A stretch of DNA of 64,000 nt from a virus (IMGVR_UViG_3300034022_000539); one strand, 5' to 3'. Shown: positions 9,066 through 58,217, counted from the first letter of the stretch. Notes: generated by a model from the sequence alone, not told the origin. Numbers and translations are program-made.

Positions 9066-9082
9066 TTTATTTTTATTTTATT

Positions 9083-10548: not shown

Positions 10549-10558
10549 ATCTGTTTTA

Positions 10559-11107: not shown

Positions 11108-11110
11108 GTT

Positions 11111-12021: not shown

Positions 12022-12305
12022 TATTTCTTTTTTATGTTTTTACCATTTGGTGTTAATTCTCCGTTATCATCCATCACCGTAAAATGTTCTCTCGAATTTC
12101 CTTGTGTTAATTCTATAGATAAACCTTTGTTCATACCACCTGATTCAGTTGAAGACCACAATCTAACTACAGTCCAAATACCTTTTTCACCTTCAACTTT
12201 AACCTTATCCCATGTCTTAACTTCAGTTTGATCAGTAAATGATTTTATTAATTTATCTTCATTAGACTCGTTAATAAAATCTTCGTATAGTTTTGCATAT
12301 TTCAT
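12021..12305 (-). CDS. leader-family protein (94 aa; MKYAKLYEDFINESN...)
   Basis: N-terminal leader. Confidence 0.65.
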   Translation of the reverse strand: MKYAKLYEDFINESNEDKLIKSFTDQTEVKTWDKVKVEGEKGIWTVVRLWSSTESGGMNKGLSIELTQGNSREHFTVMDDNGELTPNGKNIKKK

Positions 12306-12326
12306 TTGATTGTCTGTATTATTTTA

Positions 12327-13208: not shown

Positions 13209-13215
13209 ATTTTAA

Positions 13216-13992: not shown

Positions 13993-14005
13993 TGCTAAAT
14001 TTTAT

Positions 14006-15545: not shown

Positions 15546-15546
15546 T

Positions 15547-23200: not shown

Positions 23201-24118
23201 TATTCCACCTGCATCTGTACGAGTAACCTTAACATATACTTGAATAGCATGTGAATCTACTTCTTTAGTGAAGTGCATTAAAAATGATTGAATACCAGCA
23301 GATACTACTGCAACACCTAATCCAACTGGAGTTATAAATTGAGTAACTAATACATCTGATTGCAACGGAGTTAAATCAGTAGTTACTATTTGTTGTACAC
23401 TAGATACTGGGATTGGTGAAATTTCATTAAGATCATTTGCACCGCCACCATTATTAACTACAGTAACTGATTCATTCATATAGAATATTTGACCAGTGCT
23501 ATAACCTGCTTCTCCTTGTAAACCATTAACTCCACTTGAACCTGAAGTTCCATCAATTCCTGATGTACCATTAGTACCACTTGTTCCATCAATTCCAGAA
23601 GTACCATTAGTACCATCTAAACCGTTTAAACTAACTTCTACCCATGGATCATTACCATTAGTTGAAGATGGTGTATATAATTGTGGTAAAAATGTTGGAG
23701 GTCCACCTATAACATTTGTGTATATTTGTGTACTATTAGGTTTTAAAAGACCTGCGCGAACCCATTGTGGTAACGCTTGCCATTCAGTATCACCTAAAAC
23801 ACCATTATTGCCCCAATATCCTTTAGGTATTAAGACATAAAATTTATTTTCTTCAATGACATAAACTAGCATACCAACTGATCGAATACCCGTTGTATAT
23901 CCACCATCGTTTGAAACTGTAAAACCAATATGTGTAACTGGTGCAGGTGCTTCACCCCAAATAGGTAAGGCATTTCTTTCTTCAATTGTAAATACCTTTT
24001 GATACCCACCCTTTACATGTTGTGCATGTACAATTCCTTCATAAGGACTTAATGATGAACTTGGCGAAATAAAATTACCAAAGGCGTATTGTGTTGAAAC
24101 TGGTCTAGTAAATCCCAT
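20234..24118 (-). CDS. collagen-like repeat protein, 1294 aa (Gly-X-Y with X,Y = T/S/N/D; about 250 triplets) with N- and C-terminal globular domains
   Basis: A GTSGTNGSSGTNG tract (uninterrupted Gly every third residue) spans aa ~385-1140, with a shorter one at aa ~166-212. It ends GQPGQPGEAG before the C-terminal domain. The plus-strand 790-aa PLVPxVP ORF is its antisense artefact. Confidence 0.8.
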   Translation of the reverse strand: MGFTRPVSTQYAFGNFISPSSSLSPYEGIVHAQHVKGGYQKVFTIEERNALPIWGEAPAPVTHIGFTVSNDGGYTTGIRSVGMLVYVIEENKFYVLIPKGYWGNNGVLGDTEWQALPQWVRAGLLKPNSTQIYTNVIGGPPTFLPQLYTPSSTNGNDPWVEVSLNGLDGTNGTSGIDGTSGTNGTSGIDGTSGSSGVNGLQGEAGYSTGQIFYMNESVTVVNNGGGANDLNEISPIPVSSVQQIVTTDLTPLQSDVLVTQFITPVGLGVAVVSAGIQSFLMHFTKEVDSHAIQVYVKVTRTDAGGIPIAVWGTTTPTLIGWDTSTAIPVDVYQDLFLEQHYISPTDKVLVQIYAINDDNQNRTIKFYTEGVSNYSHIVSSLGATEGPAGSNGTSGTNGSNGSSGTNGSSGTNGSSGTNGSSGTNGTNGTSGVTGNPGTSGSSGTNGTNGSSGTNGTNGTNGSDGSSGTNGTNGTNGSDGTSGTNGSSGTNGTSGTNGTSGSNGTDGTSGSRGNDGSSGINGTSGMDGSHGTSGTNGTSGTNGNNGTSGFDGADGSSGTNGSSGTNGTSGTNGTSGAKGDTGTSGTNGSSGTNGTSGLNGSNGTSGANGTSGTNGSSGTNGTSGTNGSNGTSGTNGSSGTNGTSGTNGTSGTNGSSGTNGTNGSSGTNGTSGTNGSNGTSGINGTSGTNGTSGIDGRNGLDGTSGTDGSSGINGERGTSGTNGSSGTNGSSGTNGSSGTNGTSGTHGTNGTSGANGTSGTNGTSGTNGTSGTNGSSGRDGTNGTSGANGTSGTNGTSGTNGTSGTHGTNGTSGTNGTSGTNGTSGINGTSGTDGINGERGTSGTDGSSGRDGINGTSGANGSSGINGTSGSSGINGTSGTNGSSGTNGTSGLNGTSGTNGERGTSGTNGTNGTSGTNGTSGTNGTSGTNGSSGTHGTNGTSGTNGSSGTNGTSGANGTSGTNGSSGTNGTSGTNGERGTSGTNGSSGINGSNGTSGTNGTSGTNGTSGTHGTNGTSGTNGTSGTNGSSGTNGTSGTNGSSGRDGTSGSSGINGTSGTNGTSGTNGTSGTNGSSGINGTNGTSGTNGTSGLNGTSGTNGTSGKDGTSGSSGRDGTSGTNGTSGTHGTNGTSGTNGSSGTNGTNGSSGTNGTSGINGQPGQPGEAGIGSCYEHVSICATPRDEKITNQSLQKSFVLIPYTFALEGMILTGIESSYGVSDNTQEVRYTLWGVDATGTASVLLVWDHASNTKFAESIYNNVAAQLWDNKYVYVTGNQSDYDGVGFTVTAIFTNSNCTPK
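20700..22970 (-). repeat. collagen-like (Gly-X-Y) coding repeat tract, also low-complexity at nucleotide level
   Basis: Nonamer-scale repetition of GGWACWRSTGGWACHART units is visible in the sequence. Confidence 0.75.
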
Positions 24119-24138: not shown

Positions 24139-25491
24139 TTATACTACGTTTAGTGTTAATGCACCAGATAGAGGTTGGTCAAATACTTCATATAAAGTGT
24201 ATGCATTTCCTAAATGTGTGAAATCTAATTTAGATACAAATGTAAATGGAATTCCATTCGCAGCATCTGCGAATTTAGCTGTCGTTACATAGTCAGTTGT
24301 ACTAACTGATTTTGGAATTGCAATGTAATATCTTTGTGAAGAAGCCACATTAGCCGCAAAATACAATGTACCGTTAGGTATTTCAGTATTATTTATAGCA
24401 CTAAATGTATCAAAATAAATTTGTTCTACATTATTAGCAGTTCCTTCATTCGCTAACATATCGACAAATACTAAATCAAAATTAGTTGTAGTTGTATTAT
24501 CGTTTAAGTAATAATCAGAAGAAGGTGTAGTTAATGAATTAACTCCTGGATAACCTCCATTTCCGTTCCAGTGGAACCAGAATGTAGATGATCCTTCAGG
24601 AACTGGCGTTGCAGTCGGTTCTGGAATTGAAGTTGCAGTCGGTGCAGGAACTGGCGTTGCAGTCGGTTCTGGAATTGAAGTTGCAGTCGGTGCAGGAACT
24701 GGCGTTGCAGTCGGTTCTGGAATTGAAGTTGCAGTCGGTGCAGGAACTGGCGTTGCAGTCGGTGCAGGAATAGCTGTCGCTGTAGGTGCAGGAACTGGCG
24801 TTGCAGTCGGATCTGGAATTGCTGTCGCTGTAGGCGCAGGAACTTCAGTCGCTGTAGGATCTGGAACTGGCGTTGCAGTTGGGATCACTTCAGTCGCTGT
24901 AGGATCTGGAACTGGCGTTGCAGTCGGGATCACTTCAGTTGCTGTAGGTACAGGAACTTCAGTCGCTGTAGGATCTGGAACTGGCGTTGCAGTCGGGATC
25001 ACTTCAGTTGCTGTAGGATCTGGAACTGGCGTTGCAGTTGGATCTGGTATAGCTGTTGCTGTAGGTGCAGGAACTGGCGTTGCAGTCGGGATCACTTCAG
25101 TTGCTGTAGGATCTGGAACTGGTGTTGCAGTCGGAATAATCGCAGTCGCAGTTGGCAAAATTGTTGCCGTAGGAACAGGAACTGGTGTTGCAGTAGGTGG
25201 TATAGGTGTAATATCAGTAACAAATAAAGTATTTGAAACGGTTTCACATAAATTAGAGTCAATTATTTTAACTTTATATTGACCCGGTGCTAAACCACTA
25301 TTACCCGTATTATCGGTTGCATTACCAAATGTAAACGTATTGGATACAATGTTATTGACAGGATTTTGAAATGTCGGATATGCATTGTTAGGTATCGGTT
25401 GATTTGTACCTGCGTTCAGTAAAGTATATTGGTAAGGTCCGACTCCTCCAACTACTTGTACTGTAACTGTTCCATTATTAATGTTTGCCAT
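24139..25491 (-). CDS. Pro/Thr-repeat protein (450 aa): N-terminal ~95-aa domain, ~20 copies of PTATPVP(D/A)PTATE(V/A)I, C-terminal ~140-aa domain
   Basis: Tandem repeats of 21-42 nt are visible at 24564-25209. Flanking globular parts are conserved. Confidence 0.75.
   Translation of the reverse strand: MANINNGTVTVQVVGGVGPYQYTLLNAGTNQPIPNNAYPTFQNPVNNIVSNTFTFGNATDNTGNSGLAPGQYKVKIIDSNLCETVSNTLFVTDITPIPPTATPVPVPTATILPTATAIIPTATPVPDPTATEVIPTATPVPAPTATAIPDPTATPVPDPTATEVIPTATPVPDPTATEVPVPTATEVIPTATPVPDPTATEVIPTATPVPDPTATEVPAPTATAIPDPTATPVPAPTATAIPAPTATPVPAPTATSIPEPTATPVPAPTATSIPEPTATPVPAPTATSIPEPTATPVPEGSSTFWFHWNGNGGYPGVNSLTTPSSDYYLNDNTTTTNFDLVFVDMLANEGTANNVEQIYFDTFSAINNTEIPNGTLYFAANVASSQRYYIAIPKSVSTTDYVTTAKFADAANGIPFTFVSKLDFTHLGNAYTLYEVFDQPLSGALTLNVV
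24564..25209 (-). repeat. tandem coding repeats (PTATPVPDPTATEVI units)
   Basis: Near-identical 42-nt units (GGAACTGGCGTTGCAGTCGG...) are repeated. Confidence 0.75.
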
Positions 25492-25516: not shown

Positions 25517-27196
25517 TTATCTAAAAGGTTCGCCTTCATATCGACATTCAAAGTTTGATGCACATTCTCCGCCCATCGGTAATGCATATACGCCTTCTGG
25601 ATATGCCATTATAAAGTTATTTATGCTATCCCAATAATTAGGTTGCAATGTGCTACATATATTATATACAATACCTCGTGTTCCATTTATTTCAGCTGGT
25701 GCAGACATAAGTTCACTGAATAGTGTATTTTGTATTCCATTAAGATTATAATTTAAACCGAAACCTTCTGTTTGTTCAGTTTCTGGTACGAATATGAAAT
25801 GACAAAAACCTGTTTTACCTAAATCTTCAGGTGTTGGAGTAGGTCTTATAGCTTCTCCTCCACTACCACTATCTGGTGTAGATGTTGGTTCTATTGGTAT
25901 CTCAGTTGCAATTGGTGCAGGAATTAGCGTTGCAGTTGGTGCAGGAACTGGTGTTGCAGTTGGAATAACTGGTGTTGCAGTCGGTGCAGGAATAGCTGTT
26001 GCAGTCGGTGCAGGAACTGGCGTTGCAGTCGGTGCAGGAACTGGTGTTGCAGTTGGTCTTCCCTCAATTGGATCTGGATCTGGTGTTCTAACACCTTCGC
26101 ATCCAAATATATTATGTGTTAATATTCTCTCAAGACTTAAATCAGTACTCGGTGTTACACTTCTAAAAATGTAAACAGCACCTGTATTTAATTCACCTTC
26201 TATTGTAATTGTATCGTCAAGAGTTGGTGGTATAATAGTAAATCCAGCTTCAGTTAATGTTTCAGCTGTACATATATAATTAGGTTGTGCTTTTCCTTCA
26301 GGATTAAAGCAAACTATAAATTCATAATTTAATCGACCATCTATAATTGGTGTTGCGGTAGGTCTTATTGCTTCTGTTGCAGTAGGATCTGGAACTGGCG
26401 TTGCAGTTGGGATCACTTCAGTTGCAGTTGGATCTGGTAAAACTTCAACATCTGTTGGTGTTGGTGTAGGTCTAATAGATTCATCTAATGTTGCAGTCGG
26501 TGTAGGTCTAATAGATTCATCTAATGTTGCAGTAGGATCTGGTAAACCACTTCCTCCACTTCCTCCTCCACTACCACTATCTGGTGTAGATGTTGGTGTT
26601 ATACCAGCACCTCCATCACCTGAACCTCCACCTGAACTAATTGCAGTTGCAGTTGGTGGAATTGGTGTTGCAGTTGGTGGAATTGGTGTTGCAGTCGGTG
26701 TTATACCTGAACCTCCACCACTTCCACTTCCACTGCTATATACAGTAGTTGGTATTGGTGTTGGATCTGGAATTTGCGTTGCATTTGTAGTTGATGCTAA
26801 CGTAATAATAAATCCTCCACAATTATCGATTGCATCTGTTTTAGATGCAAAATTAACATAAAAATCATTACAATCATATTGAGGCGTAATCCAAATATAT
26901 TGACCTGAAGTATAACCAGCGGCTACATATCTGTCGTAATCAGTATCTAATGCACTAATTTTCCAAAATATTAATGATTTTTCTAATTCATTATCAGAAA
27001 GAGTTAAATTAGTATTCTGACCAAATATTCTCCAACCTGCCATAGTTTGTTGAGAATACAACAAATTATAGTCCATTTCAGAATGGGTTAGTGGTCTTCC
27101 TAAAGTATGCGGATGTAATGGAAACCATTTTCCATTAACCATGTTTCTATGAAGTCCGTGTATAAAACTATAATTTTCGATGTTACCGATATCCAT
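25517..27196 (-). CDS. Pro/Thr- and Gly/Ser-repeat protein (559 aa) with PTATP(I/V)P repeats and GSGSGGGSG tracts
   Basis: Repeat composition is like the neighbouring gene. An N-terminal globular domain is present. Confidence 0.75.
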   Translation of the reverse strand: MDIGNIENYSFIHGLHRNMVNGKWFPLHPHTLGRPLTHSEMDYNLLYSQQTMAGWRIFGQNTNLTLSDNELEKSLIFWKISALDTDYDRYVAAGYTSGQYIWITPQYDCNDFYVNFASKTDAIDNCGGFIITLASTTNATQIPDPTPIPTTVYSSGSGSGGGSGITPTATPIPPTATPIPPTATAISSGGGSGDGGAGITPTSTPDSGSGGGSGGSGLPDPTATLDESIRPTPTATLDESIRPTPTPTDVEVLPDPTATEVIPTATPVPDPTATEAIRPTATPIIDGRLNYEFIVCFNPEGKAQPNYICTAETLTEAGFTIIPPTLDDTITIEGELNTGAVYIFRSVTPSTDLSLERILTHNIFGCEGVRTPDPDPIEGRPTATPVPAPTATPVPAPTATAIPAPTATPVIPTATPVPAPTATLIPAPIATEIPIEPTSTPDSGSGGEAIRPTPTPEDLGKTGFCHFIFVPETEQTEGFGLNYNLNGIQNTLFSELMSAPAEINGTRGIVYNICSTLQPNYWDSINNFIMAYPEGVYALPMGGECASNFECRYEGEPFR

Positions 27197-28187: not shown

Positions 28188-28916
28188 TTATTGTTTTTTT
28201 GCTGCTAGTTGTTCTTGAATCCAACGTTTACCTAATGGATTTTGAACTGGTGTACCCAAGTTTCTGTTAATTTGCTTTTCGGCTTGATCTAATAGATCTT
28301 CACCATATGCTGAATTATCAACAATTAACATTTTATCAGATCCAAATAGTTTTTGAAAGTGACCTAAGTTATTTTGAACTTCTTTCCACATTTTTTCAAC
28401 CATTTTATCTTCTAACTTTCTTTCTCTCATTTGATTTCGCTCTAATGCAACTTCTAATGATGTATTAACGAAAACCATATATGTATCATAACCTAAGTTT
28501 TGATAAATATCTCTAGTTTTACTAATCTTATCAAAATCTTTACCAGTTCCATCAATTACTTGACCTAATCTAGAATTTAAATAGTTATTTTGAAGTCCTC
28601 TGGTCAAGTTTTTAGCTTTATCTCTAATAACCATAACTTCAGCCCATTTTTCAGGATCTTTTGCTAAATCTGCAAGATCTCCTGCATTATATCCAGCATC
28701 TTTTAAGCCTTTTTCGAATGCATTATCGTTATTAACTAATTTAAGTCCAGTTGCATAAGACACTGAACCTACTTTTCCTTTTGGAAAATCAAAAAGTTCT
28801 GTTGCAACATAAGATTTACCACTTCCTGGTCCACCTGCCATAAAGAATGCCTTAAGGATTCCTGGATCATATACGCCCTCGCTTACAAATTCTTCAAATA
28901 ATTTGATATATTTCAT
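28188..28916 (-). CDS. leader-family P-loop nucleotide kinase-like protein (242 aa; MKYIKLFEEFVSEG...MAGGPGSGKSYVA)
   Basis: N-terminal leader plus a Walker A motif GGPGSGKS 25 aa in. This is the adenylate/dNMP-kinase-like arrangement. Confidence 0.7.
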   Translation of the reverse strand: MKYIKLFEEFVSEGVYDPGILKAFFMAGGPGSGKSYVATELFDFPKGKVGSVSYATGLKLVNNDNAFEKGLKDAGYNAGDLADLAKDPEKWAEVMVIRDKAKNLTRGLQNNYLNSRLGQVIDGTGKDFDKISKTRDIYQNLGYDTYMVFVNTSLEVALERNQMRERKLEDKMVEKMWKEVQNNLGHFQKLFGSDKMLIVDNSAYGEDLLDQAEKQINRNLGTPVQNPLGKRWIQEQLAAKKQ

Positions 28917-40609: not shown

Positions 40610-41356
40610 TTAAATGTTTTTTAGATTTTCTACCATCCAATCCAATTCTACTTGACTAGCTGCATCTGAGATGGCATTATCAGGATCTGGATGTGTTTCA
40701 ATAAATACTCCATCATACTCAAAAATACGTGCAGCTAAAGAATATTGCTTTGCAAGTTTTCTACTTCCACCTGTAATACCATCACCTGACATTTGAGTTG
40801 AGTGCGTACAATCAAAGATAACTTTATCTGCAAATTGTTTCATTACATCAACTCCTCTGAAATCTACAATTAACCTATCAAAACCAAATTGAGTACCACG
40901 TTCAGTAATCCATACTTGACATGTTGGATTTACTTCTTTAATCTTGGTAACAGCATGTTTCATTGCATCAGCAGATAACCACTGACCCTTCTTAACGTTG
41001 ATAATATTAAAGTGTTTTGCACATTCTATAAGAAGATCTGTTTGTCTACATAAGAATGCTGGAATTTGAATCACATCTACTACATCTGATAATGGTAATG
41101 CTTGATCTGCTGTGTGAATATCTGTAACGATTTTAAGACCTGGAAATTTAGCTTTGACATTTCGCATAATCTCGATACCTTCGTCTAAACCCGGACCTCG
41201 ATTAGAATGAATTGAAGTTCGATTGGCTTTATCAAAGCTACCTTTAAGATACCAATCTTTTCCTTGCATTATAGGATATAGTGCATTTGCTACTTCTGTG
41301 AAGTTGTCCTCGCTTTCAATGCTACAAGGACCTAAAATATATGTGTAATTTTCCAT
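40610..41356 (-). CDS. kdsA: 3-deoxy-D-manno-octulosonate 8-phosphate (KDO8P) synthase, 248 aa
   Basis: The whole length aligns by eye with bacterial KdsA: GPCSIES, KGSFDKANRTSIHSNRGPGLDEG, VVDVIQIPAFLCRQTDL, INVKKGQ, FDCTHSTQ, FIETHPDP. These are the DAHP/KDO8P-synthase family active-site blocks. Confidence 0.9.
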   Translation of the reverse strand: MENYTYILGPCSIESEDNFTEVANALYPIMQGKDWYLKGSFDKANRTSIHSNRGPGLDEGIEIMRNVKAKFPGLKIVTDIHTADQALPLSDVVDVIQIPAFLCRQTDLLIECAKHFNIINVKKGQWLSADAMKHAVTKIKEVNPTCQVWITERGTQFGFDRLIVDFRGVDVMKQFADKVIFDCTHSTQMSGDGITGGSRKLAKQYSLAARIFEYDGVFIETHPDPDNAISDAASQVELDWMVENLKNI

Positions 41357-43102: not shown

Positions 43103-43702
43103 TTATTTGTATGCTCTAATTGTTGATATTTGTATTCCTTCATGTTCTTGTTCTAATGATTTTACTAATACTAAATTAGCCTCATCATCATCGTAAAATT
43201 GTAGGTCACTGTAACCCATATCGATCAATTCTCTAAACGCTTGTTTTTTACGATCCGATATACTACCTTTGAATTTATGTACTGAATCATTCACTGCAAA
43301 AATAAGATCTTTGTCGATTCTAAATCCAACATGTTCTCTTAACCATCTATAAATCATTTCTCTATCATCTCTTGCTGTAACAATTCCAACTGCGATGCGT
43401 GATTTATAAGCTTCTTTAAATATGTCTAAGTAATGTTCAATCATTTGACCAGCTTTCATAATCTCTAATGATTTAAATTCATCAAAGTTTAATTCATGAT
43501 CTGCATGTTTTTCATAACTATTAAATTCTTCTGGAGTCAGTGAATAACATTCTCCTGTTTTCTTATTGCAAACCTTTATTTTTGCTGATGAAATTACTAA
43601 AGTATCGTCAAGATCAAACACAAGAATCTTGGAACCATGATATGGTTTTCCAGCTCTGTTTACCTCATTTAGGTATTCTGTGTAATTTTTAACGTGTTTC
43701 AT
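43103..43702 (-). CDS. leader-family HAD-superfamily phosphatase (199 aa; MKHVKNYTEYLNEV...LVFDLDDTLV)
   Basis: A divergent leader is followed by HAD motif I DxDxT (FDLDDTL) and a later T-A-R-D motif. Confidence 0.7.
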   Translation of the reverse strand: MKHVKNYTEYLNEVNRAGKPYHGSKILVFDLDDTLVISSAKIKVCNKKTGECYSLTPEEFNSYEKHADHELNFDEFKSLEIMKAGQMIEHYLDIFKEAYKSRIAVGIVTARDDREMIYRWLREHVGFRIDKDLIFAVNDSVHKFKGSISDRKKQAFRELIDMGYSDLQFYDDDEANLVLVKSLEQEHEGIQISTIRAYK

Positions 43703-43732: not shown

Positions 43733-43996
43733 TTATTTATTAGATTCTATTTTTATTTTCAATGCAGTAAGTTTTATATCAATTTTTGATATTTCTGCTT
43801 GCATGGAAAGTTTCTGTGCAGTTAATGCTAACATTTCAGATTTTAATGGATCCTCTTCGTTTCTCATTGCTTTTGCAGTTTCAGCAGCTTTAGTTTTAAT
43901 CTCGTTTCTTTTAGAATCTAATTCTCTAACTTTAAGATTTAGGTCAGCTACTTTTTGAGCATCCTCAAATAATTGGAAAGTTTTCAGGTGTTTCAT
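43733..43996 (-). CDS. leader-related coiled-coil protein (87 aa; MKHLKTFQLFEDAQ...)
   Basis: Divergent leader. Confidence 0.55.
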   Translation of the reverse strand: MKHLKTFQLFEDAQKVADLNLKVRELDSKRNEIKTKAAETAKAMRNEEDPLKSEMLALTAQKLSMQAEISKIDIKLTALKIKIESNK

Positions 43997-44288
43997 CTTT
44001 TGGTATTTCTTTTTCTATTTCTAGAGTCCATAGTCTATTATTAGGTACTACGAATTTTCTTTCATGTCCAAAAACATAAAAAGTTGTTTTGTATATATTT
44101 TGTCTAACTATTCTAGCTTTCTTTGCGCCTTTAATATAAACTATATCATCTACATTAAAATCATTGCCCCATAAAAACTGCATACCAATAACAAGATTAG
44201 CAATCATGTCTTTGAATGTAAATGAAATTATAGCTACTGCTGTCACCCAACCCCATTCTGATATGTATTGTCCTATTAACTCTTTCAT
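43965..44288 (-). CDS. small membrane protein (107 aa)
   Basis: ORF with an N-terminal hydrophobic helix. Its end overlaps the start of the next gene. Confidence 0.5.
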   Translation of the reverse strand: MKELIGQYISEWGWVTAVAIISFTFKDMIANLVIGMQFLWGNDFNVDDIVYIKGAKKARIVRQNIYKTTFYVFGHERKFVVPNNRLWTLEIEKEIPKDETPENFPII

Positions 44289-45136: not shown

Positions 45137-45742
45137 CTAATTGATTTTATATTCAATCCAGTCATGTCCAGTTGAGTTAATGTTTGGAAAATAAAATTCA
45201 AATTTATTATTATTAACTCTAATTATTTTTGTAAATCCTATTGGTACTAATGCTCCAGTACTTAACCAATTTTGAGGTTTATCTAGAAAATGTACTCTAA
45301 TTTCTATAGTTACATTTGAAAATACTTTTGATAAATCCTTTTCAAAATGTTCTAGTTCTTTCCATGGTCCTCTATTTAATGATTCATGTTGTAATGCACA
45401 ATTTAAATAAGAGAATGTATTTCGTAAATTAGTTATATTACATGTAAATGCACCAGCAGGTGCCATATGACCTTTGTCCCATATATTATCAACATAGTCA
45501 TCATCGTCACTTGTTACAACACCTGTCCATTTCTTAAATGACATACCATCTCTTTCTTCATCACCAGTTGGGCATTGAACTTTATATTTAATAACCAAAG
45601 GTTGTTGAAATCTTTGAGAATATTCAATTTCAAATATACTCGTTTTGATTTTAACATTTGCAAGACCTGTTTGTGCATTTGCACTTGTAATTAACAATAA
45701 TGTTAGGAACGTTATTGCAATTATGTTTTTTATTTGTTTCAT
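45137..45742 (-). CDS. secreted DNA/RNA non-specific endonuclease (Serratia nuclease/EndoG family), 201 aa with Sec signal peptide
   Basis: Has an N-terminal signal MKQIKNIIAITFLTLLLITSANAQ and the active-site motif DKGHMAPAG (D-R/K-G-H-x-A-P). Confidence 0.7.
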   Translation of the reverse strand: MKQIKNIIAITFLTLLLITSANAQTGLANVKIKTSIFEIEYSQRFQQPLVIKYKVQCPTGDEERDGMSFKKWTGVVTSDDDDYVDNIWDKGHMAPAGAFTCNITNLRNTFSYLNCALQHESLNRGPWKELEHFEKDLSKVFSNVTIEIRVHFLDKPQNWLSTGALVPIGFTKIIRVNNNKFEFYFPNINSTGHDWIEYKIN

Positions 45743-46626
45743 TTAATTGATTTTATCCAGGATAATAGGTTTGTTTCTGGTTTCCAACCTAATTGCCTAG
45801 TGATTTTTGTAATATCTGCAGCGGAACGCATAGGTTCCTCTCTTTTTTCTACATGTTTGATTTCACCACCAAATGCCTCAGCCACTTCAATAACTTGAGT
45901 TTCTGTACCAGATCCAACATTATAAATTGGCATAGTGGTCTTAAATTCGGCCTGACTACTCATTATAATAGCATTTACCACATCTTTAACATAAATCCAA
46001 TCTCTAGTTTGTGTGCCATCACCAGTTACGGTAATAGGTTGATAAGATTCATATTGTTGTAAGAATATGGGCACTGCACTTCGGTATCCACCAGTAGCCC
46101 TTTGACCTTCACCAAAGACATTAAAAAATCTTAGAGCTGTACACTTAAACTGAGGTTTATTATAACTCATCATCATGTGTTCCATTTCCAATTTAAATTC
46201 GGCATAAGGACTCATCGGATTAGGTGTATCACTCTCTTTTAATGGCACTTGTTCTGAATCACCATAGACCGCAGCAGTGGATGCAGCTACCATTGAAGTA
46301 GCTCCCATTTCATAAGCCCAACTCATAACTCTTCTACTTGCAACACATATGCCATTCCAATATTTCATTGGTTGTTCTATGCTTTCAGGTACACTAATCG
46401 GTGCAGCTAAATGAAATAGAGTATCAAATTTATAAGTTGGCAATTTACTACTAATAATATCAGTAGCTTCAATAATTAAATTTGGATGTGGTTCTAAATT
46501 GTCCATGTCACCAGTACTAAAATTATCAAGTACAATTACTGACCATCCATTGTTTAGTAATTCTTTAACCAGATATGAACCAATAAAACCAGCTCCACCT
46601 GTAACTACAGCTTTTCTATTCTCCAT
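45739..46626 (-). CDS. NAD-dependent sugar epimerase/dehydratase (GalE/WcaG-like), 295 aa
   Basis: Has VVTGGAGFIGSYLV Rossmann motif and an SDR-type fold. Confidence 0.75.
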   Translation of the reverse strand: MENRKAVVTGGAGFIGSYLVKELLNNGWSVIVLDNFSTGDMDNLEPHPNLIIEATDIISSKLPTYKFDTLFHLAAPISVPESIEQPMKYWNGICVASRRVMSWAYEMGATSMVAASTAAVYGDSEQVPLKESDTPNPMSPYAEFKLEMEHMMMSYNKPQFKCTALRFFNVFGEGQRATGGYRSAVPIFLQQYESYQPITVTGDGTQTRDWIYVKDVVNAIIMSSQAEFKTTMPIYNVGSGTETQVIEVAEAFGGEIKHVEKREEPMRSAADITKITRQLGWKPETNLLSWIKSIK

Positions 46627-49600
46627 ATAATTCTTTATTTATGACAGCAATAACTCTGTCTGATCCAATGGTTTTAGTACACTCAAATTGACGATGTGTT
46701 CCTTTCCATAAAGGGCACCAATTCCAGTCACCTTTGTCAAATGTATCCCAACCCCAACAACCATGACATACTTTATGATTGTTAATATAGATAGCTGATT
46801 CAAATTCCACATAAGGATCTGTAAAGCCACTAATAACAATTACTTTGGCTCCAAGTGCCCATGCGAACCAAGATAAGCCAGAGGAAATTCCAATAAACAG
46901 TTCGGCTTCATTAATAGCTCCTGCTACTAATGCCAACTCTTCTGGCAATTGTTTAACTCCTTTTAATTGACTACCTTCTTTACTAGCATGGTACACACTA
47001 ATCTCTTTACTATTACACCAGTCAATTGTTTCTTGCCATCCAGTAGGATTATTCCAGTACTTAGCTTGCGCTGTACTTTGGGTAGCGATTACAATAGAGC
47101 GTTTTTTTGCAGTAGACTTGATCAAGAATTCGCGCGCTAGTTGAGGTCTTTGTTCTACGTACTCAGTACCTAAGCGATCTGAGGCGATTTTCCCCAGAGG
47201 TATAGTCCTCCAGTCGTATTTATGTTCTGAACGTTTCCATGGTTCTTCCATGGTGTAAAAGACTCCGATAGTGATTAGCGCACCCTTGTTAGGCACTGAC
47301 CAGTCAATGATGTCTATGCCCTTTGAGCTATACCATGCTTTGTCAAACAGCCAGGGTTTGTGTGTCTTCACATATAATCGTGATAGCTTATGTGTGTCTA
47401 TCACTGTGTGCAGCTGTCCCATGAAGCTCAATGTGTCTCCAAGTGATGAACTTGCCATTTCCACTGTAAGTTCCTGGCCTTCAAGGCTCAGACGTTCTGA
47501 ATGAACTAGTTGGTCATTACTGTAAACCTTAACAGTCCACTGAGTCCACCAATTTCTTGCGGGCTTGTACCAGTTTCCTGCCTGTAAGTCTGTTGCGTTC
47601 CATACTAGATCTTCATGATCGTAGAACTCGGCCCGTAATTGAGTGCCTCCAGTTTCCTTGATCGTTAATTTCGGACCATCTTGATATTCTAATGTCCATT
47701 CAGGTTGTTTGTATATCGGAGCTTTTTGAGGGCCTCGTGGGGTAGTTAAACATTGTTGGTACCATTGGATATGCTGATCAGTGAAACGTTTTAGATCATC
47801 AGCTGGGATATTTTTTCCTTGTGCCTCGGATGATTTGAGTGTTTTGATTAATTGGTCAACATTTTCATGGAGATCGTTTGTGAATGGGACAATGTAAGGT
47901 GTAAACATGTCTTTATATTGCTCTAAGTCCCTAGAGAATGTGATTAGACCATGACCGATTGCTTCACGTAGTGCGAGTGGACTACACTCCCATGTTGAGT
48001 TAAACATAAATGCGTCACATGCACTCATAAAGACGTCAACATCGTTTCTCTCACCCCATACAGTAACATTACTTGGCAACTTCTTCATAATTGGTCCCCA
48101 ATATTGTTCGAAGTTTTCTGCTTGATTACCTACGAAATGAAATTGATACTTTCCAGGAAATCTAGCTTCAACTATTCTGGCAATATCAACACCTTCTGCT
48201 TGATTCTTACCTTGTGTCCAAAGACCTACATTTAATATATGTGTCTTATCAATGGCTAAACCTAATTTAGCTCTTGATTTTGCTTTATCAAACGCTGAAG
48301 GTTTTTGATTTAATATAGGATATTCTACAACTGGTTTTAAACCATCTCTATTTCCGAAAGTTTCTAAATGATATGGAGTACACATCATGTACATATCTGG
48401 ATCATTAATCTTATCGTTTGGATCAAACCAAATATTGTGAGATGTTTCTACAATTTTCCATTGCTTATTGTAAAGCCATTCCATTGCACTTTGATCAATT
48501 TTATTAAATCCATCAAATGATTCTGGACATTCATCAATATGAATAATATCTGGGTTTATTTCTAAAATCTTTGCCTTTAATCTTTCACCTCGTTCGGTAA
48601 TGTCTATTGAATTTAAGAATCCTAATGAATGAAATCTAGCACCTAATTTTTCTATAAGTTGATCTCGTTGCACATTGTAAATATCACTATATTGTGTATA
48701 CTCTACTAAGTGAATTTCATATTCTTTTACATCTAACATAGCTTCGACTCTCTTTAAGACAAATTGAGGCATGCCTCCTGTACTTAAATGTGGTGCTAAG
48801 AATAGTAATTTAGTTTTGTTTGTCATTTCTTTGGTATTAGGTTTCATATAGACATTGTCTACTAATAAGTCATTATACAAATCTATAACTGCATCGAATG
48901 TTTTATCTACTGTAGGATGACACTCGAATGTTGGTTTATATTCTAAACAATATAATTGTGGCGGAACAGCTTGAATAGTTCCATGTTCAATAATATTGTA
49001 TTTCATATTACTGGAACAGAAAATATCGCAACTTCCACCAATATATTTGTATTTATAATCTTGTGAACCCTTTCTATAAGGTGCTCTTAATTTTGGATCT
49101 ATTGAACTACCTAATTGAATAATATTTACGTCAGTAGTTCCTGCAATGTGCAATAAACCAGAATCCATAGTTACTATAGCTCTAGCTTTATGATTCATCA
49201 TCCATCTTAATTCAGCTGGATCATTTGTTGCATCATTAAGTAAGTTAACTCCAAGCTTTATATTCAAATCCATTACGGGTTTGTCTATTGAGAATGTACC
49301 GAATTCATGAGAATCTCGGCCAACCGCAACCACTGGAATACCTCTATCATTTAATTTATCAACAAGTTCTTGCCATTTATCTTGATCCCATGTTCTAGTT
49401 GCCCAGGTATAAGTTGGGTGTATTATAACATAGTTTTCAAATCCAAGATTTCTTTCACGTTCAATATACAAATCCATTTCCATTTCATCTTGAGTTAAAC
49501 TAAACCCTAATGAAACTGCATGAAATTGTCTAATATCCATATTAGAAGATCTGAATTCTACTTGTTCACCTCTTAGATCATATGCTTTGCCAACGATTGG

Positions 49601-49822
49601 CATAAATGTACGATAAACCTTTATGTCGGAGTCATATCTAAGAGGGTCATCCAACTTTAATGCTTTTGACACAAGTGGATGACCCTCAAATAAGAAAGGT
49701 TTACTAGAAAATACTATAAGTTGTGACTCACACGCTTTAGCTAACTTCCTAAGTGTAGGAATTGCTGCTATCGTGTCACCTAATGCAGGTGTATCTATAC
49801 ATATCGCAACTTGTTTTGACAT
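46616..49822 (-). CDS. three-module glycosyltransferase, 1068 aa: GT9 (heptosyltransferase-like) / GT4-like (E-x7-E) / GT9
   Basis: The N-module has LGDTIAAIPTLRKL (GT9 N-motif). The middle has WECSPLALREAIGHGL (the GT4 retaining-GT E-x7-E motif). The C-module has SLGDTLSFMGQL and GISSGLSWFAWALGAKVIVISGFTDP (GT9 C-motif). Confidence 0.75.
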   Translation of the reverse strand: MSKQVAICIDTPALGDTIAAIPTLRKLAKACESQLIVFSSKPFLFEGHPLVSKALKLDDPLRYDSDIKVYRTFMPIVGKAYDLRGEQVEFRSSNMDIRQFHAVSLGFSLTQDEMEMDLYIERERNLGFENYVIIHPTYTWATRTWDQDKWQELVDKLNDRGIPVVAVGRDSHEFGTFSIDKPVMDLNIKLGVNLLNDATNDPAELRWMMNHKARAIVTMDSGLLHIAGTTDVNIIQLGSSIDPKLRAPYRKGSQDYKYKYIGGSCDIFCSSNMKYNIIEHGTIQAVPPQLYCLEYKPTFECHPTVDKTFDAVIDLYNDLLVDNVYMKPNTKEMTNKTKLLFLAPHLSTGGMPQFVLKRVEAMLDVKEYEIHLVEYTQYSDIYNVQRDQLIEKLGARFHSLGFLNSIDITERGERLKAKILEINPDIIHIDECPESFDGFNKIDQSAMEWLYNKQWKIVETSHNIWFDPNDKINDPDMYMMCTPYHLETFGNRDGLKPVVEYPILNQKPSAFDKAKSRAKLGLAIDKTHILNVGLWTQGKNQAEGVDIARIVEARFPGKYQFHFVGNQAENFEQYWGPIMKKLPSNVTVWGERNDVDVFMSACDAFMFNSTWECSPLALREAIGHGLITFSRDLEQYKDMFTPYIVPFTNDLHENVDQLIKTLKSSEAQGKNIPADDLKRFTDQHIQWYQQCLTTPRGPQKAPIYKQPEWTLEYQDGPKLTIKETGGTQLRAEFYDHEDLVWNATDLQAGNWYKPARNWWTQWTVKVYSNDQLVHSERLSLEGQELTVEMASSSLGDTLSFMGQLHTVIDTHKLSRLYVKTHKPWLFDKAWYSSKGIDIIDWSVPNKGALITIGVFYTMEEPWKRSEHKYDWRTIPLGKIASDRLGTEYVEQRPQLAREFLIKSTAKKRSIVIATQSTAQAKYWNNPTGWQETIDWCNSKEISVYHASKEGSQLKGVKQLPEELALVAGAINEAELFIGISSGLSWFAWALGAKVIVISGFTDPYVEFESAIYINNHKVCHGCWGWDTFDKGDWNWCPLWKGTHRQFECTKTIGSDRVIAVINKELYGE

Positions 49823-49825: not shown

Positions 49826-50215
49826 TTAGTATGATTCATAGGATTTCTCTTCTACAAATAAAGATCCCGTTAACAAATTGATTTTTTTCTTGACATCAGA
49901 TCTGTCATCATTTGTGTAATACACTGATCTTGCCAATTCAACGAAGTCTTCACCAAATGATTCTCGACGTTCGCATTCACGAATCATATCTTCAATATTC
50001 CAAAGGGTTTTATTTACATTAAATAAATCTTTATGTAATACATCTAATTCGCGATAGTCATCAGCTTCATTGTAGATGTGATCTACGACAGATTTAAGTG
50101 AATCATACTCTTTTTGAATGTTTGCTAATTTTTCAGGATCAGAAATCTCTTTAAGTTTGATTTCTAAAATAGTAAATTTATCAATAATCTCTCCGTTTGA
50201 TACCTCGATTTTCAT
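49826..50215 (-). CDS. hypothetical protein (129 aa)
   Basis: ORF. Confidence 0.5.
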   Translation of the reverse strand: MKIEVSNGEIIDKFTILEIKLKEISDPEKLANIQKEYDSLKSVVDHIYNEADDYRELDVLHKDLFNVNKTLWNIEDMIRECERRESFGEDFVELARSVYYTNDDRSDVKKKINLLTGSLFVEEKSYESY

Positions 50216-56152: not shown

Positions 56153-57076
56153 TTATTTAATACCGATCATAGCATTGGTTTTGTCACCTAGCATAGTTTC
56201 TGGTAATTTACCATTCCATTTGTTAATCCATTCTAATTGAAGTAACATTGGTGTAATAGTTTGTTGTTTTAATCTATTTGCTTCAGCTTCAGCTTTTGCA
56301 GATGCTAACATTGCAGAGGCATTACCATTTGCAGTTGCAACTTTAATTTTAGCTTGTGCTTCTGCTGTTTTAACTTCATTTTCTGCTCTTAACGCTGATT
56401 GTACTGCATTATTCTTAGCTTCAATTGATCTCTTAAATGTTTCAGGATAGATTAAGTTAGATGTGAATTGATTAATAATAAATCCTTCTTGTAATAATTG
56501 TCCTTCTAATAGTCTTCGTACTTCTACTTCAAAAACTGCACGATTTGAAATTAACTCGTCTGCTGTATATTTATTAGTTGCCAATCGGAATGCATCATAA
56601 ACCGCGGTCTTTAAGAAACCTTCTTCGATTTCTGGTAATGATCTACGATACTTTGCAAAGATAGCTGGTACTTTTTCACGTTGAACTGAATAGTTCATGA
56701 TTGGTGAAACTTGAAACTCTGAACCATCTTTAGAGTTTACAATAAACGAATTATCAATATCTTCGGTTTTCTTGTACTCTTTGTGTTGGATATAAGTAGG
56801 GAATTCATAAATCTTTGTAGTAATAGGATTATAGAATACCATACCTGTACATTCTGTTACATCATCTACACCTTTACCACTTCCATATAAATTAACTTTT
56901 ACTCCTACGTGTCCTGCGTCAATACGCTCACATGATTGAAATACTACTACTAAAGCGATAAACGCTACTACTCCGATTAAAATTTTCTTTACCATTTTTT
57001 TAATTTTTAATTGTTTGTTTAATTTTTCTTGTTCTCTTTGTTCTTGCTGGATTTCCCAGTAGCTTTTTTCTGACAT
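56153..57076 (-). CDS. SPFH/band-7 (prohibitin/HflK-like) membrane protein, 307 aa
   Basis: An N-terminal TM helix is followed by an SPFH-like core and a C-terminal Ala/Glu coiled coil. Confidence 0.6.
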   Translation of the reverse strand: MSEKSYWEIQQEQREQEKLNKQLKIKKMVKKILIGVVAFIALVVVFQSCERIDAGHVGVKVNLYGSGKGVDDVTECTGMVFYNPITTKIYEFPTYIQHKEYKKTEDIDNSFIVNSKDGSEFQVSPIMNYSVQREKVPAIFAKYRRSLPEIEEGFLKTAVYDAFRLATNKYTADELISNRAVFEVEVRRLLEGQLLQEGFIINQFTSNLIYPETFKRSIEAKNNAVQSALRAENEVKTAEAQAKIKVATANGNASAMLASAKAEAEANRLKQQTITPMLLQLEWINKWNGKLPETMLGDKTNAMIGIK

Positions 57077-58136: not shown

Positions 58137-58143
58137 TCTTTAG

Positions 58144-58217
58144 TGGAGGTGACAGGAATCGAACCTGCGACCCTCTGCGTGCAAGGCAGATGCTCTAGCC
58201 AACTGAGCTACACCCCC
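58144..58217 (-). tRNA. tRNA-Ala (anticodon UGC)
   Basis: The sequence folds into a cloverleaf by hand. The acceptor arm is GGGGGTG/CACCTCC with the G3:U70 Ala identity pair. The D-arm is GCTC/GAGC. The anticodon arm is TCTGC-CTTGCAC-GCAGA. The T-arm is GCAGG-TTCGATT-CCTGT. The discriminator is A and no CCA is encoded. Confidence 0.85.

What the first reader, a model, noticed from the sequence alone, without database searches (positions are those of the whole stretch)
46616..49822. 1068-aa three-module glycosyltransferase (GT9 / GT4 / GT9) next to GalE-like epimerase
Two heptosyltransferase-like GT9 modules flank a GT4-like module in one polypeptide. The GT9 N-terminal motifs are LGDTIAAIPTLRKL and SLGDTLSFMGQL. 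The GT9 C-terminal motif is GISSGLSWFAWALGAKVIVISGFTDP. The GT4 module carries E-x7-E. GT9 enzymes act on KDO/heptose in the LPS inner core. A fused multi-GT is more typical of giant-virus glycosylation machinery than of phages. Combined with kdsA, it predicts assembly of an inner-core-like oligosaccharide.
Basis: partly seen in the sequence, partly recalled or inferred. Interest (0 to 1): 0.6.

Follow-up and report, generated by a model that had tools for sequence, protein, structure and literature searches.

The report
Phage three-enzyme fibre-glycosylating fusion protein
A jumbo-phage gene fuses three sugar-adding enzymes, two of them related to a bacterial enzyme that puts sugars on proteins rather than on cell-wall lipid, and gene-neighbourhood evidence suggests it sugar-coats the phage's own serine/threonine-rich collagen-like tail fibre.

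Summary
Window 46616..49822 (-) is an intact 1068-aa ORF with three GT-B modules (GT9-like, GT4, GT9-like), and it overlaps an SDR sugar-epimerase gene by 11 nt.

The LPS inner-core reading is not supported. Residues 701-1063 are a full-length relative of TibC, the autotransporter protein O-heptosyltransferase:
- PDB phmmer E 3e-31; Foldseek TM 0.76; NCBIfam TIGR04414 208 bits against a cut-off of 200.
- It keeps TibC's beta-barrel, catalytic Asp, phosphate and sugar contacts, and Cys4 finger.
- It lacks the adenine-reading Arg-286 and the dodecamer-forming beta-hairpin thumb.

The N-terminal module is also structurally closest to TibC and has its own Cys4 insert.

Across 112 non-redundant bacterial and viral loci, these non-classical TibC-like genes lie within 1 kb of a collagen-like (Gly-Ser/Thr-Ser/Thr)n gene in 33 of 75 cases. 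Classical TibC-type genes do so in 0 of 26 (p=6e-6). The window encodes such a fibre (20234..24118; 822 aa of GTN/GTS/GSS triplets).

Best explanation: a cytoplasmic assembly line that O-glycosylates the phage's collagen-like fibre. The acceptor and the sugars are inferred, not shown. I rate it a new variant of a known kind.

The parts
46616..49822 (-). Whole gene: 1068-aa tri-modular glycosyltransferase (stop codon at 46616-46618)
   Evidence: ORF list and translation; Pfam; 23-sequence alignment of full-length homologues; AlphaFold2 model with pLDDT 77
48833..49822 (-). Module 1 (aa 1-330): divergent GT9-type GT-B domain without a beta-barrel. Invariant L14-G15-D16-T17 (putative catalytic base D16), H135-P-T137-x-T139-W140-x-x-R143, and D220-S-G222-x-x-H225
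   Evidence: PF01075 E 2.6e-11; best Foldseek match is TibC (TMq 0.60, E 2e-8), ahead of 3tov, WaaF and WaaC; only weak sequence-profile matches to WaaC/WaaF; invariant residues
48920..49030 (-). Module 1 Cys4 insert (C265-x3-C269-x22-C292-x8-C301), invariant in 23 homologues and positionally equivalent to TibC's iron finger
   Evidence: Invariant columns; low pLDDT there, as expected for a metal site that the model does not include
47738..48817 (-). Module 2 (aa ~336-695): GT4-type (Glycos_transf_1) GT-B domain with E612-x7-E620
   Evidence: PF00534 at 35.1 bits against 26.4, and PF13692; Foldseek matches to BshA, HepE, WaaG, PimB' and MshA, E 1e-10 to 1e-12; E612 invariant and E620 in at least 90% of sequences
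47453..47722 (-). Module 3a (aa 701-790): TibC-type N-terminal flattened beta-barrel
   Evidence: phmmer alignment covers TibC residues 15-97; seven strands modelled across aa 708-789; Foldseek aligns ~395-400 columns of TibC at TMt 0.76
46619..47452 (-). Module 3b (aa 791-1068): TibC-type catalytic domain. D796 = TibC D110; T917/K921 = T226/K230; S980 = AAH S294 / TibC P300; W985 = W305. It lacks Arg-286 and the beta-hairpin thumb
   Evidence: residue roles taken from PMC4358343
46679..46768 (-). Module 3 Cys4 finger (C1019-x2-C1022-x13-C1036-x11-C1048), matching TibC C339/C342/C358/C370
   Evidence: Alignments; invariant
45739..46626 (-). NAD-dependent nucleotide-sugar epimerase/dehydratase (GalE-like), overlapping the GT gene by 11 nt; likely tailors a donor sugar
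   Evidence: PF01370 E 8e-51; GalE model 174.8 bits (below cut-off); homologues within 10 kb of the TibC-like gene in 18 viral loci
49826..50215 (-). DUF6165 protein, 3 nt upstream of the GT gene; a conserved neighbour of unknown role
   Evidence: PF19662 E 1e-15; same position in relatives; present in 13 of the 80 viral TibC-like loci
20234..24118 (-). Proposed acceptor: 1294-aa collagen-like tail-fibre protein. G-X-Y tracts at aa 166-207 and 386-1165 (822 aa). Triplets GTN x86, GTS x78, GSS x37. X/Y positions are 32% Thr, 30% Ser, 22% Asn
   Evidence: PHROG tail-fibre / collagen-like hits; composition; same repeat type as the proteins encoded next to non-classical TibC-like genes elsewhere
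16149..17396 (-). Probable further member of the same glycosylation kit: PF11397 'GlcNAc' glycosyltransferase (Skp1-type protein GlcNAc-transferase family)
   Evidence: PF11397 E 1.6e-74; homologues lie within 10 kb of the TibC-like gene in 15 other viral loci

Best explanation
The gene encodes a soluble, cytoplasmic, three-active-site glycosyltransferase of an uncultured marine jumbo phage. I propose that it O-glycosylates Ser/Thr residues of the phage's own collagen-like tail fibre (20234..24118) before virion assembly.

Proposed steps:
1. The C-terminal TibC-type module (beta-barrel, GT9 catalytic domain, Cys4 metal finger) recognises the repetitive (Gly-Ser/Thr-Ser/Thr/Asn)n fibre and attaches the first sugar. 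D796 acts as catalytic base. The sugar is most likely a heptose or similar, taken from a host nucleotide-sugar pool.
2. The GT4 module (a retaining-type family, E612-x7-E620) and the N-terminal barrel-less TibC-type GT9 module add further sugars.
3. The translationally coupled epimerase supplies or tailors one of the donors.

Relatives swap extra modules (FkbM methyltransferase, GT8, GT34) in between module 1 and the GT4 module, which would diversify the glycan.

Shown: the three-module architecture, conservation of catalytic residues, kinship of module 3 with TibC and the specific features it lacks, and the statistical and physical linkage of this enzyme clade to Ser/Thr-rich collagen-like genes.

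Inferred: the acceptor in this phage, the order of the steps, and the identity of the sugars.
For: - Module 3 matches full-length TibC: phmmer E 2.8e-31 over aa 701-1063 against TibC 15-385; Foldseek TMt 0.76, E 1e-23; TIGR04414 at 208 bits against a cut-off of 200.
- The residues TibC needs for catalysis, phosphate and sugar binding and the Cys4 finger are all present and invariant in 23 homologues (roles from PMC4358343).
- Module 1's best structural match is also TibC.
- In a joint alignment the phage module groups with a non-classical clade that lacks Arg-286 and the thumb tip.
- After de-duplication, 33 of 75 non-classical loci (17/33 bacterial, 16/42 viral) have a collagen-like ORF within 1 kb, against 0 of 26 classical loci (Fisher p=5.6e-6). 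The X/Y positions of those ORFs are 70-100% Ser/Thr.
- Clean same-strand pairs exist, for example L122: 709-aa GT, 49 bp gap, 1288-aa (GTS/GSS)n protein; also L158 and L097.
- In L007, the adjacent protein is confirmed as PF01391 Collagen.
- The closest cellular relatives of module 3 (L004-L006, 35-39% identity, same short spacing) are flanked by (GSS)n ORFs at gaps of 87-178 bp.
- The window contains exactly this type of fibre. Fibre homologues and TibC-like GT genes share two IMG/VR contigs.
- GT4-module, module-1, GT60-like and epimerase homologues recur around TibC-like genes in 62, 34, 15 and 18 of the 80 viral loci.
- The gene sits in a tightly packed same-strand block next to the endolysin gene.
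Against: - No biochemical or proteomic data exist for any member of this clade.
- In the window, and in its six closest viral relatives, the collagen-like gene is not adjacent: 0 of 6 have one within +-10 kb, and it is 22.5 kb away here. The link for this sub-clade therefore rests on extrapolation from sister clades and on co-occurrence in the genome.
- The TIGR04414 and second Pfam GT9 scores are only marginally above their cut-offs.
- The loss of Arg-286, which reads the adenine of ADP-heptose in TibC, leaves the donor uncertain.
- No heptose-pathway genes are in the window. The relatives' small nucleotidyltransferase cannot be assigned: 49 bits against 48 bits for two models, both far below cut-off.
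- The window also encodes Pro/Thr-rich mucin-like proteins that could be the real or additional acceptors.
- Inter-module geometry is not reliable (pTM 0.42).
- The association test used classical BAHT loci as the control, not random phage DNA.
Confidence: 0.55

Rival explanations
1. One reading: the enzyme builds an LPS inner-core-like (Kdo/heptose) oligosaccharide, or remodels the host's LPS core, for example to block superinfection. It would use Kdo made with the help of the phage kdsA.
For: Both outer modules hit PF01075. Module 1 keeps a WaaC/WaaF-like D-S-G-x-x-H motif and has weak WaaC/WaaF profile matches. kdsA is present in the window and in relatives. An HtrL/YibB-family gene, a family annotated from the E. 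coli LPS-core region, is also in the window.
Against: All LPS heptosyltransferase equivalog models are far below cut-off. Both modules are structurally closer to TibC. Module 3 carries TibC's beta-barrel and Cys4 finger, which are TibC-specific additions to the GT9 core; the paper implicates the finger in TibA recognition and raises substrate recognition as one possible role of the barrel. No Kdo transferase (GT30), KdsB or heptose-pathway gene was found in the window. Module 1 motifs are absent from 185,579 bacterial species representatives, which is unexpected for a borrowed core enzyme. kdsA lies near the TibC-like gene in only 1 of 80 viral loci.
Confidence: 0.1
2. It is a protein O-glycosyltransferase, but with a different acceptor: the window's mucin-like Pro/Thr-repeat proteins (24139..25491, 25517..27196, 17500..20220), other virion proteins, or a host surface protein such as an autotransporter.
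For: TibC kinship. The window encodes three proteins with long PTATPVPxPTAT repeats next to the fibre gene. Some TibC-like viral loci have Ser/Thr/Pro-rich ORFs that are not collagen-like nearby, for example L104, L114 and L135. In this sub-clade the collagen-like gene is not adjacent.
Against: The clade-wide partner is specifically G-X-Y with Ser/Thr, not Pro/Thr linkers. No autotransporter is evident in the window. The non-classical clade lacks the thumb, and TibC's mode of autotransporter hyperglycosylation is tied to its dodecamer. A GT60-family enzyme in the window is a more natural candidate for the Thr-rich mucin-like repeats (own knowledge of CAZy GT60).
Confidence: 0.2
3. It is a multi-enzyme polymerase that makes a free or lipid-linked polysaccharide (capsule-like or EPS-like) rather than modifying a protein.
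For: Foldseek also aligns the whole model to the Actinobacillus capsule multi-enzyme 8qoy (E 2e-13, 857 columns). Multi-GT fusions are typical of capsule polymerases (own knowledge).
Against: That match has TM 0.26 and rmsd 19.9, so it shows only generic similarity between repeated GT-B domains. No transporter, flippase or lipid-carrier genes are nearby. The TibC-specific barrel and finger and the collagen-like linkage are not explained.
Confidence: 0.07
4. It glycosylates phage DNA or a small molecule, as an anti-restriction or metabolic function.
For: GT-B enzymes glycosylate DNA in T-even phages (own knowledge). A non-specific endonuclease and a Nudix hydrolase lie downstream.
Against: No hydroxymethyl-pyrimidine pathway genes were seen in the window. 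No homology to known DNA glycosyltransferases appears in any search. The endonuclease recurs near TibC-like genes in only 3 of 80 viral loci.
Confidence: 0.03

Closest known systems
TibC / AAH bacterial autotransporter heptosyltransferases (BAHT family; PDB 4RAP/4RB4; NCBIfam TIGR04414)
   Same: Module 3 aligns end to end with TibC. It has the N-terminal beta-barrel, the GT9-type GT-B catalytic domain, the catalytic Asp (D796 = D110), the beta-phosphate contacts (T917/K921), the heptose-O4 Trp (W985) and the four-Cys metal finger. It has Ser at the position that lets AAH accept both heptose epimers (S980). Module 1 shares the catalytic fold and a positionally equivalent Cys4 insert.
   Different: It has no Arg-286 (adenine contact). 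The beta-hairpin thumb that builds the TibC dodecamer is deleted; the spacing is 54 aa against 65 aa. It is fused to two more GTs rather than being a ~400-aa stand-alone enzyme. It is encoded by a phage. No autotransporter is adjacent; the clade's partner is a collagen-like (G-S/T-S/T)n protein instead of a beta-helical passenger domain.
LPS core heptosyltransferases WaaC / WaaF / WaaQ (CAZy GT9)
   Same: Same Pfam family (PF01075) and GT-B fold. Module 1 keeps a WaaC-like D-S-G-x-x-H segment and an N-terminal G-D catalytic motif.
   Different: Scores are far below every curated equivalog cut-off. The structural similarity is lower than to TibC. There are extra Cys4 inserts. There is no waa-cluster context.
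Glycosylated bacterial collagen-like proteins (Bacillus BclA, C. difficile BclA1) and Mimivirus collagen modification (PMC8968730)
   Same: A collagen-like surface fibre rich in Thr is modified with sugars. In Mimivirus, the virus encodes the modifying enzyme.
   Different: The enzymes are unrelated: the BclA pathway and the Mimivirus lysyl-hydroxylase/glucosyltransferase are not TibC-like. The repeats here are Pro-poor, with Ser/Thr/Asn at both the X and Y positions.
Mycobacteriophage virion glycosylation (Freeman et al. 2023, as cited in PMC12582341)
   Same: Phage-encoded glycosyltransferases extensively glycosylate the phage's own virion proteins in the host cytoplasm.
   Different: The phages and hosts are different, and in those phages the enzymes are separate genes rather than a fusion (own recollection; the paper could not be opened). 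No TibC-type or fused multi-GT enzyme is known to me from that system.

Membership tests
BAHT (TibC/AAH) protein O-heptosyltransferases | Curated family HMM (TIGR04414 equivalog) at or above its cut-off | tested here: met
   208 bits against a cut-off of 200, aa 730-1063. The margin is small.
BAHT (TibC/AAH) protein O-heptosyltransferases | GT-B catalytic domain with Asp-110 as base, Thr-226/Lys-230 phosphate contacts and Trp-305 sugar contact | tested here: met
   D796, T917, K921 and W985 are aligned and invariant; residue roles from PMC4358343.
BAHT (TibC/AAH) protein O-heptosyltransferases | N-terminal flattened beta-barrel (TibC residues 1-97) | tested here: met
   Aligned to TibC 15-97. 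Strands are modelled across aa 708-789. Foldseek covers the whole TibC chain at TMt 0.76. The Pfam TibC_1st model itself was not reported.
BAHT (TibC/AAH) protein O-heptosyltransferases | Four-Cys iron finger (C339/C342/C358/C370) | tested here: met
   C1019/C1022/C1036/C1048 are aligned and invariant. The identity of the metal cannot be tested here.
BAHT (TibC/AAH) protein O-heptosyltransferases | Arg-286 reading adenine N1 (ADP-sugar specificity) | tested here: not met
   It falls in a gap, and there is no Arg in LPEELALVAGAINEAELFIG. It is absent from the whole non-classical clade: 0 of 75 loci, against 16 of 26 classical loci by a strict motif.
BAHT (TibC/AAH) protein O-heptosyltransferases | Beta-hairpin thumb with hydrophobic tip (F265/V266) that builds the dodecamer | tested here: not met
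   The GFVWNHIPW segment is deleted. The spacing from KYW to GxxSGLSW is 54 aa against 65 aa in TibC.
BAHT (TibC/AAH) protein O-heptosyltransferases | Encoded next to its autotransporter substrate | tested here: not met
   No autotransporter lies near the gene. The clade is instead linked to collagen-like genes.
BAHT (TibC/AAH) protein O-heptosyltransferases | Transfers heptose from ADP-heptose to Ser of a protein | not testable with these tools
   This needs an enzyme assay or mass spectrometry.
LPS core heptosyltransferases (WaaC/WaaF/WaaQ) | Curated equivalog HMMs at or above their cut-offs | tested here: not met
   Scores against cut-offs: TIGR02193 49.8 / 185.3; NF008204 45.7 / 437; NF007742 35.6 / 467; TIGR02195 28.2 / 134.6.
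LPS core heptosyltransferases (WaaC/WaaF/WaaQ) | Pfam PF01075 domain and GT-B fold | tested here: met
   This is a feature of the superfamily, shared with TibC.
CAZy GT4-type (Pfam Glycos_transf_1) glycosyltransferases | PF00534 above the gathering score, GT-B fold and the E-x7-E motif | tested here: met
   35.1 bits against 26.4. E612 and E620 are conserved. Foldseek matches BshA, HepE, WaaG and PimB'.

The most novel reading that the evidence does not exclude
Non-classical TibC-like enzymes are a widespread, undescribed class of collagen-specific protein O-glycosyltransferases. In many environmental phages and in several bacterial lineages (Methylococcales, Polaromonas, marine Gammaproteobacteria) they hyper-glycosylate (Gly-Ser/Thr-Ser/Thr)n triple-helical fibres. 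In phages they have been fused with GT4, a second TibC-type GT9 module, methyltransferases, GT8 or GT34 into programmable glycan assembly lines. These would set the surface chemistry of tail fibres, with consequences for host range, stickiness and protease resistance.
Probability: 0.45. Interest if true: 0.8.

Novelty: new variant of a known kind. Interest (0 to 1): 0.62.

Why it matters
The TibC/AAH family is known only as a virulence-associated modifier of autotransporter adhesins. If the reading here is right, a larger sister clade has a different substrate class, collagen-like fibres, and is common in uncultured phages.

That would make glycosylated tail fibres a frequent feature of environmental phages, not a peculiarity of mycobacteriophages and giant viruses. 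It would also explain what the unusual Pro-free (GTS/GSS)n 'collagens' are for, and it would offer single-polypeptide, multi-step glycosylation enzymes for glyco-engineering.

It is directly testable. The enzyme and a fibre fragment can be co-expressed in E. coli, which makes ADP-heptose.

It also corrects a likely mis-annotation. Public pipelines already name these proteins 'autotransporter strand-loop-strand O-heptosyltransferase', yet there is no autotransporter in sight.

Tried and rejected
- Near-identity DNA search of 50,697 phage records: no match. A protein search found only four distant partial hits: Microcystis phage Mel-JY01, where the region is annotated as FkbM methyltransferase, and three metagenomic huge-phage records. 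The window is therefore from an uncultured lineage.
- Sequence-profile search of module 1 against the PDB gave only weak WaaC/WaaF hits (E ~0.1). A separate structure prediction was needed to classify it.
- A scan of bacterial species genomes with module-1 motifs found nothing, so I could not name a host or a donor lineage. The best cellular relative of module 3 is only ~40% identical. A CHU_C (type IX secretion) domain protein in relatives hints at a Bacteroidota host. I did not pursue this.
- Donor sugar: I looked for GmhA, HldE and GmhB in the window and found none. The small nucleotidyltransferase in relatives ties between heptose-1-P adenylyltransferase and glycerol-3-P cytidylyltransferase, both far below cut-off. 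The adjacent epimerase cannot be assigned to GalE or HldD. The donor remains undetermined.
- My first motif-based detection of TibC-like ORFs missed about half of the loci. I replaced it with tblastn-anchored ORFs and de-duplication.
- Literature searches found nothing that links TibC-like enzymes with collagen-like proteins or with phages: heptosyltransferase + TibC + phage; collagen-like + heptosyltransferase; TibC + collagen, which was swamped by clinical 'TIBC' papers. The Freeman 2023 paper could not be opened.
- I did not interpret the inter-module arrangement in the full-length model because pTM is 0.42.

Full report
**1. Observation**

Window 46616..49822 (minus strand) is an uninterrupted ATG-initiated ORF of 1068 aa.

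Pfam finds Glyco_transf_9 in two stretches and Glycos_transf_1. With each third scanned on its own, all three pass Pfam's gathering scores:

| Module | Family | Bits | Cut-off |
|---|---|---|---|
| 1 (N-terminal) | GT9 (PF01075) | 43.8 | 22 |
| 2 (middle) | GT4-type (PF00534) | 35.1 | 26.4 |
| 3 (C-terminal) | GT9 (PF01075) | 23.0 | 22 (marginal) |

The downstream gene 45739..46626 overlaps the GT gene by 11 nt. It is an SDR sugar epimerase/dehydratase; GalE is its best model, but below cut-off. kdsA (40610..41356) passes its equivalog cut-off.

The surroundings identify a phage. They include an endolysin with PG_binding_1 and Amidase_2 domains, tail-fibre PHROG hits, and a glycosyltransferase 42-47% identical to those of jumbo Xanthomonas and Stenotrophomonas phages. 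Near-identical proteins lie on metagenomic contigs of 225-261 kb, some from marine (Tara) samples. No cultured phage is close.

**2. What the modules are**

*Module 3.* The decisive result is that aa 701-1063 align end to end with TibC, the enterotoxigenic E. coli autotransporter heptosyltransferase:
- PDB 4RAP/4RB4, E 2.8e-31.
- NCBIfam's equivalog model for this family is passed (TIGR04414, 208 bits against 200). Every LPS heptosyltransferase model is far below its cut-off.
- An AlphaFold2 model (pLDDT 77) superposes on TibC with a TM-score of 0.76 normalised to TibC, E 1e-23.

*Module 2.* The middle module matches GT4 enzymes (BshA, HepE, WaaG, PimB') in the same fold search.

*Module 1.* It has only weak sequence-profile matches to WaaC and WaaF. 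Folded alone, its best structural match is again TibC (TM 0.60, E 2e-8), ahead of WaaF, WaaC and 3tov.

*Conservation.* In an alignment of 23 full-length homologues (49-96% identity), the following are invariant:
- both L-G-D-T motifs;
- two sets of four cysteines, C265/269/292/301 and C1019/1022/1036/1048;
- E612 of the GT4 E-x7-E motif.

All three active sites therefore look functional.

**3. Test against TibC's published defining features** (PMC4358343)

| TibC feature | Role | Phage protein | Status |
|---|---|---|---|
| Asp-110 | catalytic base | D796 | kept |
| Thr-226 / Lys-230 | beta-phosphate contacts | T917 / K921 | kept |
| Trp-305 | heptose O4 contact | W985 | kept |
| Cys-339/342/358/370 | iron finger | C1019/1022/1036/1048 | kept |
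| Residues 1-97 | beta-barrel | aa 701-790 | kept |
| Pro-300 (AAH Ser-294) | heptose epimer selectivity | S980 | AAH-like Ser |
| Arg-286 | hydrogen-bonds adenine N1; the paper gives it as the basis for using an ADP-activated donor | none | missing |
| F265 / V266 | tip of the beta-hairpin thumb that assembles the dodecamer | deleted segment | missing |

Module 3 is therefore a TibC relative that fails two family-defining features.

**4. A distinct clade with a distinct partner**

Module 3 has 318 relatives among bacterial species representatives, the best about 40% identical, and 294 in IMG/VR viral contigs.

A joint alignment with TibC splits them into two groups:

| Group | Spacing, KYW motif to GxxSGLSW motif | Thumb motif | PLQERV Arg |
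|---|---|---|---|
| Classical enzymes | 64-66 aa | present | present |
| Non-classical enzymes | 60-62 aa, or 54-56 aa as here | absent | absent |

After de-duplication to 112 loci, I counted ORFs with at least 15 consecutive G-X-Y triplets within 1 kb of the TibC-like gene:
- 33 of 75 non-classical genes have one (17/33 bacterial, 16/42 viral).
- 0 of 26 classical genes have one (Fisher p = 5.6e-6).

These neighbours are unusual collagens. Their X and Y positions are 70-100% Ser/Thr, with some Asn, Ala or Asp and almost no Pro.

Supporting examples:
- Same-strand gene pairs separated by 49-61 bp, for example L122, L158 and L097.
- In L007 the neighbour is confirmed as Pfam Collagen.
- The closest cellular relatives of the window's module (L004-L006) are flanked by (GSS)n ORFs at gaps of 87-178 bp.

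Viral members are nearly always fused to a GT4 module (34 of 36 are longer than 600 aa). Around the 80 viral loci, homologues of the window's proteins recur as follows:

| Window protein | Viral loci with a homologue (of 80) |
|---|---|
| GT4 module | 62 |
| Module 1 | 34 |
| Epimerase | 18 |
| GT60-like enzyme | 15 |
| DUF6165 | 13 |

**5. Back to the window**

Gene 20234..24118 encodes a 1294-aa tail-fibre-like protein. It has 822 residues of G-X-Y made of GTN, GTS and GSS triplets, and its X/Y positions are 32% Thr, 30% Ser and 22% Asn. This is exactly the partner type seen elsewhere.

It lies 22.5 kb from the GT gene, on the same strand. Homologues of its non-repetitive N-terminal domain are found on two IMG/VR contigs that also carry a TibC-like GT gene. 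On the 256-kb contig the two genes are about 15.5 kb apart.

I therefore propose that the tri-modular enzyme glycosylates this fibre. Module 3 would prime Ser/Thr, and the GT4 and N-terminal modules would extend the glycan.

Relatives insert an FkbM methyltransferase, a GT8 or a GT34 between module 1 and the GT4 module, or split module 1 off. This fits diversification of a glycan rather than conservation of an LPS core.

Module 1 belongs to a modest, highly modular family. It has 114 clusters at E<=1e-30 and occurs N-terminal, internal, C-terminal or stand-alone. Its motifs were not found in bacterial species genomes.

**6. Limits**

- Nothing here is biochemical.
- For the window's own sub-clade, the collagen-like gene is never adjacent (0 of 6 viral loci).
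- The donor is unknown. The heptose-contacting residues are kept, but the adenine contact is lost. No heptose-pathway genes are in the window, and the neighbouring nucleotidyltransferase in relatives cannot be assigned.
- The window's Pro/Thr-repeat proteins are alternative acceptors.
- kdsA remains unexplained by the fibre model. It may feed Kdo into the glycan or simply boost host LPS synthesis.

**7. Comparison with what is known, and novelty**

- It works like TibC/AAH, that is, cytoplasmic hyper-glycosylation of a repetitive surface protein. It is not a full member of that family: two defining features were tested and not met, and the substrate context differs.
- It is not an LPS core heptosyltransferase.
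- Precedents for the proposed biology are glycosylated collagen-like BclA proteins and virus-encoded collagen modification in Mimivirus (PMC8968730), and extensive virion glycosylation in mycobacteriophages (cited in PMC12582341).
- I found no paper that links TibC-like enzymes to collagen-like proteins or to phages.
- Public pipelines already label these proteins as autotransporter heptosyltransferases, which is probably misleading.

**8. Verdict**

| Item | Assessment |
|---|---|
| Observation | confirmed |
| Novelty | new variant of a known kind |
| Interest | 0.62 |

Noticed in passing
window 24139..25491 and 25517..27196 (- strand): Two adjacent proteins (450 and 559 aa) are dominated by mucin-like repeats of the type PTATPVP[AD]PTAT[EA][VI] (Thr 14-19%, Pro 12-16%). 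They lie directly upstream of the collagen-like fibre gene and are likely further virion fibre or decoration proteins and candidate O-glycosylation acceptors.
   Followed up: partly
window 17500..20220 (- strand): A 906-aa protein with a vWA-like N-terminus (weak PF00092), PTATP linkers and a C-terminal Hint/intein-like segment (GGCLLEGT...GIITHN; weak PF14890 Intein_splicing, below cut-off). This suggests an autoprocessing fibre or adhesin protein.
   Followed up: no
window 8376..17396 (- strand): A second sugar-related gene cluster lies downstream of the fibre genes. It contains a PF11397 'GlcNAc' glycosyltransferase (E 1.6e-74; 42-47% identical to jumbo Xanthomonas and Stenotrophomonas phage proteins), DUF3431, a weak nucleotide-diphospho-sugar transferase, an HtrL/YibB-family protein, and a second SDR epimerase whose best (sub-threshold) model is ADP-heptose 6-epimerase. 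Homologues of the PF11397 enzyme recur next to TibC-like genes in 15 viral loci.
   Followed up: partly
window 40610..41356 (- strand): A phage-encoded KdsA (3-deoxy-8-phosphooctulonate synthase) passes its equivalog cut-off and is conserved in close relatives. No KdsB, KdsC, KdsD or Kdo transferase was recognised in the window. A 199-aa HAD-like protein (43103..43702) could be a phosphatase.
   Followed up: partly
window 20628..23000 (+ strand) and several shorter ORFs inside 20234..24118: A 790-aa antisense ORF and several nested ORFs lie inside the collagen-like gene. They are almost certainly artefacts of the G-X-Y codon periodicity rather than genes.
   Followed up: no
window 28188..28916 (- strand): A Zeta-toxin / AAA_33-type kinase domain protein (E 8e-10). 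By my own recollection, zeta toxins phosphorylate UDP-GlcNAc, so it might act on a nucleotide sugar. This is untested.
   Followed up: no
window 49826..50215 (- strand) and L001 9605..9997: A DUF6165 protein is encoded 3 nt upstream of the GT gene and in the same position in relatives. It is present in 13 of 80 viral TibC-like loci and in no bacterial ones. It may be an accessory factor of unknown role.
   Followed up: partly
L001 338..670 (relative of the window on a 240-kb contig): A 110-aa protein with a CHU_C domain (type IX secretion sorting domain) hints that this phage lineage infects Bacteroidota.
   Followed up: no
window 58143..58217 (- strand); 56153..57076; 43965..44288: The window also holds a single tRNA-Ala(TGC), an SPFH/Band-7 protein, and a small protein with a mechanosensitive-channel beta-domain.
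   Followed up: no
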